Below are positions 11,500-11,697 of a stretch of DNA of 64,000 nt, one piece after another. The stretch comes from Eledone cirrhosa (taxonomy: Eukaryota), in the NCBI GenBank assembly GCA_964016885.1, contig CAXHJY010000941.1, positions 62,001 to 126,000 of the forward strand, written 5' to 3'. The notes under the pieces are model-generated. The model searched no databases. It had not been told where the DNA came from and was given only the letters and a program-made list of their open reading frames with translations. The translations under genes were made by a program, and so were the position numbers. The number at the start of each line of letters is the position of its first letter. The stretch's first letter is position 1.

Positions 11500-11697
11500 T
11501 CTGGTTGTGGAACCAACCAACCAACCAGAAATTTATAAATTTGTAAATTTATAAATATTTAATAAATTAAATTGAAGTGAAAGCAACTGGTGCGTGTGTT
11601 TCTTATTGGCAACATGACCCTCCCAAAGTATAACAATATCGGTTTCAACACACGATTTCAGATAAAGAATCTTGCTAAACAAATTCAGAAACGAAAT

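What the first reader, a model, noticed from the sequence alone, without database searches (positions are those of the whole stretch)
11614..11697. The missing PLE ORF N-terminus lies downstream of the 3' UTR (permuted unit) in two families
Seen: after the hammerhead-like motif, ATG-initiated peptides occur four times: [27 protein letters not shown] (11614+), [27 protein letters not shown] (15103-), MTLPKYNN (20277+) and MTLPKHNN (25837+). The peptide is conserved while the upstream UTR DNA of the two families is largely unalignable. Both long ORFs lack their starts. Known: PLEs form partial tandems (pLTRs). Inference: this is the true protein start, the template reads tail-to-head, and cDNA synthesis initiates within the first ~10-30 codons of the next unit.
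Basis: partly seen in the sequence, partly recalled or inferred. Interest (0 to 1): 0.75.

Follow-up and report, generated by a model that had tools for sequence, protein, structure and literature searches.

The report
Two-ended Penelope insertions carrying gene start
The short peptide is the true start of a Penelope-like jumping gene's protein and sits at the ends of its copies, a known feature of these elements; what is added here is that two-armed copies almost always pair one short with one long end and share rare RNA-editing-type marks, which suggests both arms are likely copied from a single RNA.

Summary
MTLPK... is residue 1 of the ORF: family B copies elsewhere run from it through RT and GIY-YIG endonuclease in one ~1,210-aa frame. 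Penelope pseudo-LTRs are known to hold the first codons plus an optional 'tail', and RT starts there at two sites (PMC3846280, PMC11167929). Corrections: the 11614 peptide lies in a 200-bp inverted arm without the hammerhead; 15103 and 20277 are two arms of one insertion. Added here: ends fall at +26 (short) or +69 to +86 (long), about 1:1 in family A genome-wide. 78 of 80 two-armed insertions pair one short with one long end. Either arm can be the longer. In two insertions both arms share genome-unique A-to-G clusters. Best model: two RTs prime on opposite strands of a cut (TA)n target and copy one sense RNA from two registers about 60 nt apart (inferred, ~0.65). This scan saw the two-armed footprint and editing marks before, on other DNA. 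New member of a known kind; interest modest.

The parts
11614..11699 (+). Family A ORF codons 1-28 plus 2 nt: 'long' end (+86) of an inverted arm, joined to (TA)n
11498..11613 (+). Rest of the short inverted arm: last ~114 nt of the family A UTR, no hammerhead
8020..11492 (-). Family A long arm: 5'-truncated ORF (from about residue 222; Asn-rich insert, RT, linker Zn finger, GIY-YIG; stop 8357) and 3' UTR, ending at the internal TATATA 141 nt before where the ATG would be; its own ATG end is absent
8030..8073 (-). Minimal hammerhead-like motif (CUGAAGA core, 6-bp stem II, GAAA)
   Evidence: coordinates counted from the print
11700..12720 (.). (TA)n-type microsatellite flank (target); end approximate
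15020..16550 (-). Family B inverted arm: ORF 3' part, UTR, hammerhead with core change at 15335, ATG 15103, 'long' end at +84
16548..20302 (+). Family B long arm: ORF from residue 140 to stop 19767, UTR, hammerhead with the same core change at 20045, ATG 20277, 'short' end at +26
19995..20002 (+). AAATGGCG motif, candidate transcription-start element (also 15378-15385 -, 8120-8127 -, 25608-25616 +)
20303..21015 (.). (TA)n-type flank right of the family B insertion (left flank about 13680-15019); ends approximate
25234..25862 (+). Single 5'-truncated arm of another family A subfamily: ORF end, UTR, hammerhead (about 25663-25706), ATG 25837, 'short' end at +26

Best explanation
The peptides are the first 8-28 codons of a Penelope-like retrotransposon ORF, left at insertion ends because the pseudo-LTR includes the gene start, and the two arms of an insertion are likely made by two reverse transcriptases copying one sense RNA from two fixed start registers onto the two strands of a cut (TA)n target. 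Steps: (1) shown: MTLPK is residue 1; units are about 4.1 kb ATG to ATG; ends fall at +26 or +69 to +86; two-armed insertions pair one of each. (2) inferred: transcription starts in the pseudo-LTR near AAATGGCG and reads through the 3' UTR into the next ATG region. (3) inferred: the protein, probably a dimer, binds the first codons, nicks both strands of (TA)n, and each 3' end pairs with a 2-4-nt UA stretch of the RNA inside a fixed window. (4) inferred: the two cDNAs stop independently and are joined head to head by end joining. When one priming fails, a single arm results.
For: Start: 9 of 18 family B units (picked for long frames) have 1,208-1,211-aa ORFs from MTLPK; 16 of 30 family A read-through loci are open from the start to VNMISC, where the window ORF begins; an in-frame stop lies 7-11 codons upstream in both families; three foreign homologues start at the same place. 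Two registers: first 100 exact hits per family gave A 47 short, 52 long, 1 read-through; B 55, 36, 9; genome-wide A 13,093 short, 11,464 long, 437 read-through. Pairing: 78 of 80 long+short, 2 long+long, 0 short+short (p about 3e-21 against 50%); a further stretch by coordinates only, 24 of 28. Independent truncation: short-end arm longer 46, long-end arm longer 35, equal 17 of 98. One template: arms differ 2.8% (A) and 0.5% (B) against 7.3% and 1.8% between insertions; rare variants shared by both arms in 10 of 31 and 10 of 32 insertions against 66 of 2,853 and 15 of 2,737 unrelated pairs; two insertions carry dense sense-strand A-to-G clusters in both arms, and a 30-nt pattern from each occurs exactly twice in the genome. 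Position plus microhomology: equally good TA sites at +19, +51, +141 are almost unused, and in B the long end splits over the TA sites at +69, +71, +84. In vitro, an anole PLE cuts and extends both strands from two internal sites and is predicted to be a dimer (PMC11167929).
Against: No RNA or biochemical data for this family. At C1:181.30 Mb the three UTRs of the long-end arm carry a 138-nt deletion that the short-end arm lacks, so those arms did not copy the same nucleotides. At C1:2.08 Mb the terminal ~0.9 kb of the short-end arm is another, unedited haplotype, and that insertion alone is also compatible with fold-back. A few family A pairs differ as much as unrelated copies. 17 of 98 pairs are near-perfect palindromes and arm lengths correlate (rho 0.37), which fold-back or conversion would also give. 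Shared edits rest on two insertions. The anole study saw no strand difference in start site and no homology to the target. 4 of the 78 pairs were not read through contiguously; one short end with a 10-nt short-tail match in its flank was judged chance and left out. Junction TA overlap cannot show pairing by itself, since the exact junction is ambiguous within it.
Confidence: 0.65

Rival explanations
1. Fold-back: one cDNA primed at the long site folds on itself and is copied back to +26; later central deletions make the palindrome lopsided.
For: Explains one tail per insertion, arm identity and shared edits; 17 of 98 near-symmetric pairs; self-priming was proposed for rotifer Penelopes (PMC3846280).
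Against: Predicts long-end arm at least as long; the short-end arm is longer in 46 of 98, by up to 11.7 kb, and 13 more short ends have only a tiny long-end partner. Single arms in family B are 15 short to 1 long. The 138-nt deletion confined to a long-end arm is absent from its supposed copy.
Confidence: 0.15
2. Two RTs, two RNAs: each subunit copies its own transcript, usually from the same source locus; asymmetry of the complex fixes which site each uses.
For: The one-arm 138-nt deletion, the haplotype switch at C1:2.08 Mb and some divergent family A pairs.
Against: Editing-type clusters should differ between RNA molecules, yet 22 rare A-to-G sites are shared by both arms at C1:18.41 Mb, with 2 more in one arm only, and no third copy of either edited pattern exists in the assembly.
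Confidence: 0.15
3. One start site only; the 60-nt tail is removed or left by endonuclease resolution of the intermediate, and arm identity comes from later gene conversion.
For: Craig et al. ascribe the tail to EN-mediated resolution (PMC8557442).
Against: Both tail ends are RT starts in vitro in the anole element (PMC11167929); single arms of both end types exist.
Confidence: 0.05

Closest known systems
Pen2a_Av and related EN+ Penelope elements of Adineta vaga (Arkhipova et al. 2013, PMC3846280; passages read)
   Same: pLTR includes the first 12 codons of the ORF, 22 with the tail; tail optional on one of the inverted pLTRs; head-to-head arms; long Asn-rich inserts in the ORF.
   Different: Tail here about 60 nt (codons 9-28) against 31; tens of thousands of ends; Asn-rich insert lies before the RT; (TA)n target. 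The paper favours self-priming on an antisense template; sense-strand A-to-G marks here favour a sense template.
PAc, Poseidon element of Anolis carolinensis (Frangieh et al. 2024, PMC11167929; whole main text read; 3 supplement files held as text had none of 4 terms)
   Same: RT starts inside the ORF at two sites that bound the tail; both strands cut and extended; AT-rich target; hammerhead not needed in vitro.
   Different: PAc start is reported as not homologous to the target and not strand-specific; here both ends sit on TA stretches and are mutually exclusive within an insertion. PAc's clade lacks the linker Zn finger; its hammerhead overlaps the ATG, here it lies 180-223 nt upstream.
Penelope of Drosophila virilis (Schostak et al. 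2008, PMC2377424; passages read)
   Same: 34-37-bp repeat at the ORF beginning and often again at the 3' end; promoter inside the pseudo-LTR; partial tandems with inverted termini.
   Different: No intron was sought or seen here; promoter is only inferred.
Nematis and Neptune clades of C-terminal EN+ PLEs (Craig et al. 2021, PMC8557442; sections 3 and 11, passages and supplement rows read)
   Same: C-terminal GIY-YIG with CCHH, CX2-5CxxC linker, hammerhead, microsatellite bias, tail often at one end only.
   Different: DKS invariant in 34 of 34 aligned proteins instead of DKG; PPKF for GxKF and an RW motif as described for Hydra; short linker spacing as in the Nematis rows, unlike the Neptune rows. 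Clade not placed.
L1 twin priming (recalled, no call)
   Same: Second target strand primes a second cDNA on the same RNA, giving an inversion.
   Different: In L1 the two cDNAs cover different parts of the RNA; here both start within 60 nt of each other and copy the same stretch twice.

Membership tests
EN+ Penelope-like elements | Single ORF with RT and C-terminal GIY-YIG endonuclease | tested here: met
   1,210-aa ORFs with YVDD and VVYSI..YIGE; Pfam support weak: RVT_1 E 3e-4 for the window family A ORF, none for family B; GIY-YIG E 0.003 for homologue P0036
EN+ Penelope-like elements | CCHH motif in the endonuclease | tested here: met
   Two Cys between VVY and YIG, H-x3/4-H downstream, kept in most homologues
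EN+ Penelope-like elements | Partial tandems forming pLTRs, inverted 5'-truncated copies, optional tail | tested here: met
EN+ Penelope-like elements | Minimal hammerhead motif in the pLTR | tested here: met
   CUGANGA..stem II..GAAA in both families, stem II kept with two paired changes; B core intact in 115 of 118 regex matches; B stem I weak. Rfam listed no hammerhead among the 150 of 219 rows shown. Cleavage not tested
EN+ Penelope-like elements | RT phylogeny sister to telomerase, inside PLE clades | tested here: inconclusive
   Quick tree of 33 unlabelled proteins separates the DKS group from five weak RVT_1-bearing hits; no labelled references
Nematis clade | Reduced CX2-5CxxC linker close to GIY | tested here: met
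   CX4CxxC-x7-C then VVY, spacing like the Nematis rows
Nematis clade | RT groups with Nematis elements | not testable with these tools
   No labelled Nematis protein was available to the alignment tools
Neptune clade | CX2-5CxxC linker with a long spacer before GIY, as in the two Neptune rows seen | tested here: not met
   About 20-25 residues after CxxC in Neptune rows against 7 here
Hydra clade | CCHH absent, DKT, CxCX5C linker, under 3 kb | tested here: not met
   CCHH present, DKS, 4.1-kb units
Naiad/Chlamys | N-terminal endonuclease | tested here: not met
   Endonuclease motifs at residues 1098-1120 of 1,210

The most novel reading that the evidence does not exclude
Penelope-like elements integrate by obligate asymmetric twin priming: one complex engages one sense RNA at two registers about 60 nt apart and primes both strands of a (TA)n break through short UA pairing, copying the same RNA stretch twice into head-to-head arms. 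RNA-editing scars act as single-molecule barcodes that record this in the genome, and they exclude an antisense template. The carriers may be an unnamed DKS lineage of PLEs.
Probability: 0.6. Interest if true: 0.6.

Novelty: new member of a known kind. Interest (0 to 1): 0.35.

Why it matters
The finding as posed restates the known pLTR and tail. The added counts bear on an open point named in the literature: how PLEs make inverted structures with a tail at one end only. A 78-of-80 long+short rule, free arm lengths and shared editing-type marks narrow the choice to twin priming on one RNA, and give exact sites (+26, +69 to +86), a (TA)n target and young intact ORFs for the in vitro assay that already exists for an anole element.

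Tried and rejected
Extra synonymous conservation in the first 28 codons (RNA signal): 13 of 20 identical codons against 150 of 265 in the RT region, p 0.49; not shown, though amino-acid identity is 75% against 44% for residues 29-248. Shared RNA fold over +1 to +120: single-sequence folds were weak and unlike in A and B; no model built. Rfam scan: rows shown were microsatellite matches to miRNA models. The hammerhead core change shared by the window's two B arms is not private: 105 genome matches, and it is a CpG-type change, so it is weak evidence only. Rolling-circle template: compatible with arrays whose units differ by 0-4 changes (6-46 between arrays), including three units with the same short frame, but not required, and successive pLTR passes differ in two insertions. 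Homologue search with residues 1-250 found none. PDB profile search: one weak bacterial RT hit, no PLE structure. Sequencing runs: no RNA holder listed. Pyatkov et al. 2004 was not held; Evgen'ev and Arkhipova 2005 and Arkhipova 2006 were not read and may state the one-tail rule more exactly. Paper searches listed no paper proposing twin priming for PLEs or counting end pairing; subscription papers are not covered. The 2026 retrozyme preprint was seen as abstract and outline only; PMC4209133 and PMC13282606 as passages.

Full report
Observation. The window holds two related PLE families. Family A: a long arm at 8020-11492 on the minus strand, a 200-bp inverted arm at 11498-11699 that carries the 11614 peptide, and a separate single arm of another subfamily at 25234-25862. 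Family B: one insertion with an inverted arm at 15020-16550 and a long arm at 16548-20302; its arms differ at 1 of 1,447 nt. So the 11614 peptide is not downstream of its own ORF's 3' UTR and has no hammerhead before it; the other three do. The long family A arm stops at an internal TATATA, 141 nt before the ATG position, so its own end is missing.

Is it the protein start? Yes. In the 3.0-Gb own genome, family B copies run in one frame from MTLPK through RT and endonuclease: 9 of 18 ATG-to-ATG units examined, chosen for long frames, have 1,208-1,211 aa. The window ORF begins at residue 140. For family A, 16 of 30 read-through loci are open from the start to VNMISC, where the window ORF begins; the longest frame seen was 864 aa and includes YVDD. 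An in-frame stop lies 11 (A) and 7 (B) codons upstream with no in-frame ATG between. Three foreign homologues align from their residues 6-7 to positions 3-9.

This is known. [quoted passage not shown] D. virilis Penelope has a 34-bp repeat at the ORF start and often at the 3' end, and its promoter in the pLTR (PMC2377424, passages). Craig et al. draw the tail as often present at one end only (PMC8557442). Frangieh et al. showed in vitro that RT starts inside the ORF at two sites bounding the tail, on both strands (PMC11167929, main text read).

End positions. I took the first 100 exact matches of each start context, which are blind to tail length. Family A: 47 short (+22 to +26), 52 long (43 at +86), 1 read-through. 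Family B: 55 short, 36 long (mainly +69 to +71 and +84 to +85), 9 read-through. 93 of 98 and 87 of 88 terminal ends are followed by TA repeats. Genome-wide exact counts for A are 13,093 short, 11,464 long and 437 read-through; B has 247 read-through. Ends sit on TA stretches of the element, but equally good stretches at +19, +51 and +141 are nearly unused, and the B long end, which has only TAT at +84, spills to +69 and +71. I read this as fixed windows tuned by 2-4-nt pairing; the junction is ambiguous inside the overlap, so pairing is inferred.

Pairing rule. Outward-facing pairs were 65 of 67 long+short. Adding 13 short ends whose partner is a tiny long-end arm gives 78 of 80, with 2 long+long and none short+short; 4 pairs were not read contiguously, one doubtful short+short case was left out, 25 ends were single arms joined to TA (A 6 long, 3 short; B 1 long, 15 short) and 27 were interrupted or unresolved. 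A further stretch scored by coordinates only gave 24 of 28, with 2 long+long and 2 short+short. In nearly all contiguous pairs the space between the two ATGs is element sequence with a single inversion point.

How are the arms made? The short-end arm is longer in 46, the long-end arm in 35, and 17 of 98 are equal, so simple fold-back from the long end does not suffice. Arms of one insertion are closer than arms of different ones (A 172 of 6,079 sites against 7.3%; B 48 of 9,061 against 1.8%) and share rare variants in 10 of 31 and 10 of 32 insertions against about 2% and 0.5% of unrelated pairs. A 30-nt pattern from each occurs exactly twice in the genome. A threshold scan flagged 3 of 142 family A arms as A-to-G skewed, none as T-to-C skewed, and none of 149 family B arms. 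That favours one sense RNA. ADAR as the cause is inferred. Against: a 138-nt deletion confined to one arm at C1:181.30 Mb; the terminal ~0.9 kb at C1:2.08 Mb is a different, unedited haplotype; some A pairs are as distant as unrelated copies; arm lengths correlate. At 32 scorable inversion junctions, 14 had inserted bases and 9 of the other 18 had 2 nt or more of overlap against 14% by chance, as end joining would give.

Template. Arm 5' ends cluster from 16 nt before to 4 nt into an AAATGGCG motif kept in both families (A 17 of 36, B 9 of 14 local ends), a likely transcription start. A minimal hammerhead-like motif lies 180 (A) or 223 (B) nt before the ATG and fits the description in PMC4209133 (passages). 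Tandem units in one array differ by 0-4 changes against 6-46 between arrays, which allows repeated copying of one RNA, but successive passes differ in two insertions, so a circle is not needed. The unit is therefore not oddly permuted: it is a terminally redundant transcript whose repeat includes the gene start.

Classification. C-terminal GIY-YIG with CCHH and a CX4CxxC linker. Linker spacing resembles the Nematis rows and not the Neptune rows of Craig's figure S2. DKS is invariant in the 34 aligned proteins, which form a group apart from five weak hits in a quick, unlabelled tree. The closest named protein is an Octopus vulgaris hypothetical protein at 69%. Clade membership is open.

Earlier notes. 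No note on this sequence. Other agents reported the two-armed, two-fixed-end footprint for retrozymes in this genome and for shark PLE stubs, and editing marks in a Penelope hairpin. These are not independent support; I tested the pairing before seeing them and the editing after.

Verdict. Observation confirmed, interpretation right but published (about 0.95 for the core reading). The twin-priming refinement is likely (0.65) and testable. Interest 0.35.

Noticed in passing
window 2298-5432 (+), 26449-28968 (-), 21394-22611 (+): Young AP-endonuclease LINE copies (97% alike) with a PHD finger inserted after the RT core; RTE-like by recollection.
   Followed up: partly
window 5687-6223 (+): 178-aa open frame with three C2H2 zinc fingers, probably the 3' end of another LINE; first part overlaps a short dispersed repeat.
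   Followed up: partly
window 55817-62690: 24-bp minisatellite, 288 copies, giving long open frames in several phases.
   Followed up: partly
L062 (C1:2087904, 2090006) and L232 (C1:18413245, 18413877): A-to-G clusters run from about -240 to -70 and spare the ~70-100 nt before the ATG and the first codons; they start near the putative transcription start. Could mark a protected protein-binding region or a template jump at the RNA 5' end.
   Followed up: partly
L087/L088 (C1:14.38-14.40 Mb): Three tandem family B units share the same shortened 552-aa frame and differ by 0-2 nt over 4.1 kb; a defective RNA was copied in trans or repeatedly.
   Followed up: partly
L074/L075 (C1:181.30 Mb): 138-nt UTR deletion between short direct repeats in all three UTRs of one arm only.
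   Followed up: partly
window 9900-11450 (-) and 16750-17400 (+), approximate: Unrelated-looking Asn/His-rich low-complexity inserts of about 150-200 aa at the same place before the RT in both families; homologues are mostly shorter.
   Followed up: no
P0070: An Octopus vulgaris leucine-rich-repeat protein isoform matches 21% of the RT-EN query at 74% identity: a PLE fragment inside a gene model, exonised or mis-annotated.
   Followed up: no
L026:93 (-): A third start variant ([23 protein letters not shown]) suggests more subfamilies.
   Followed up: no
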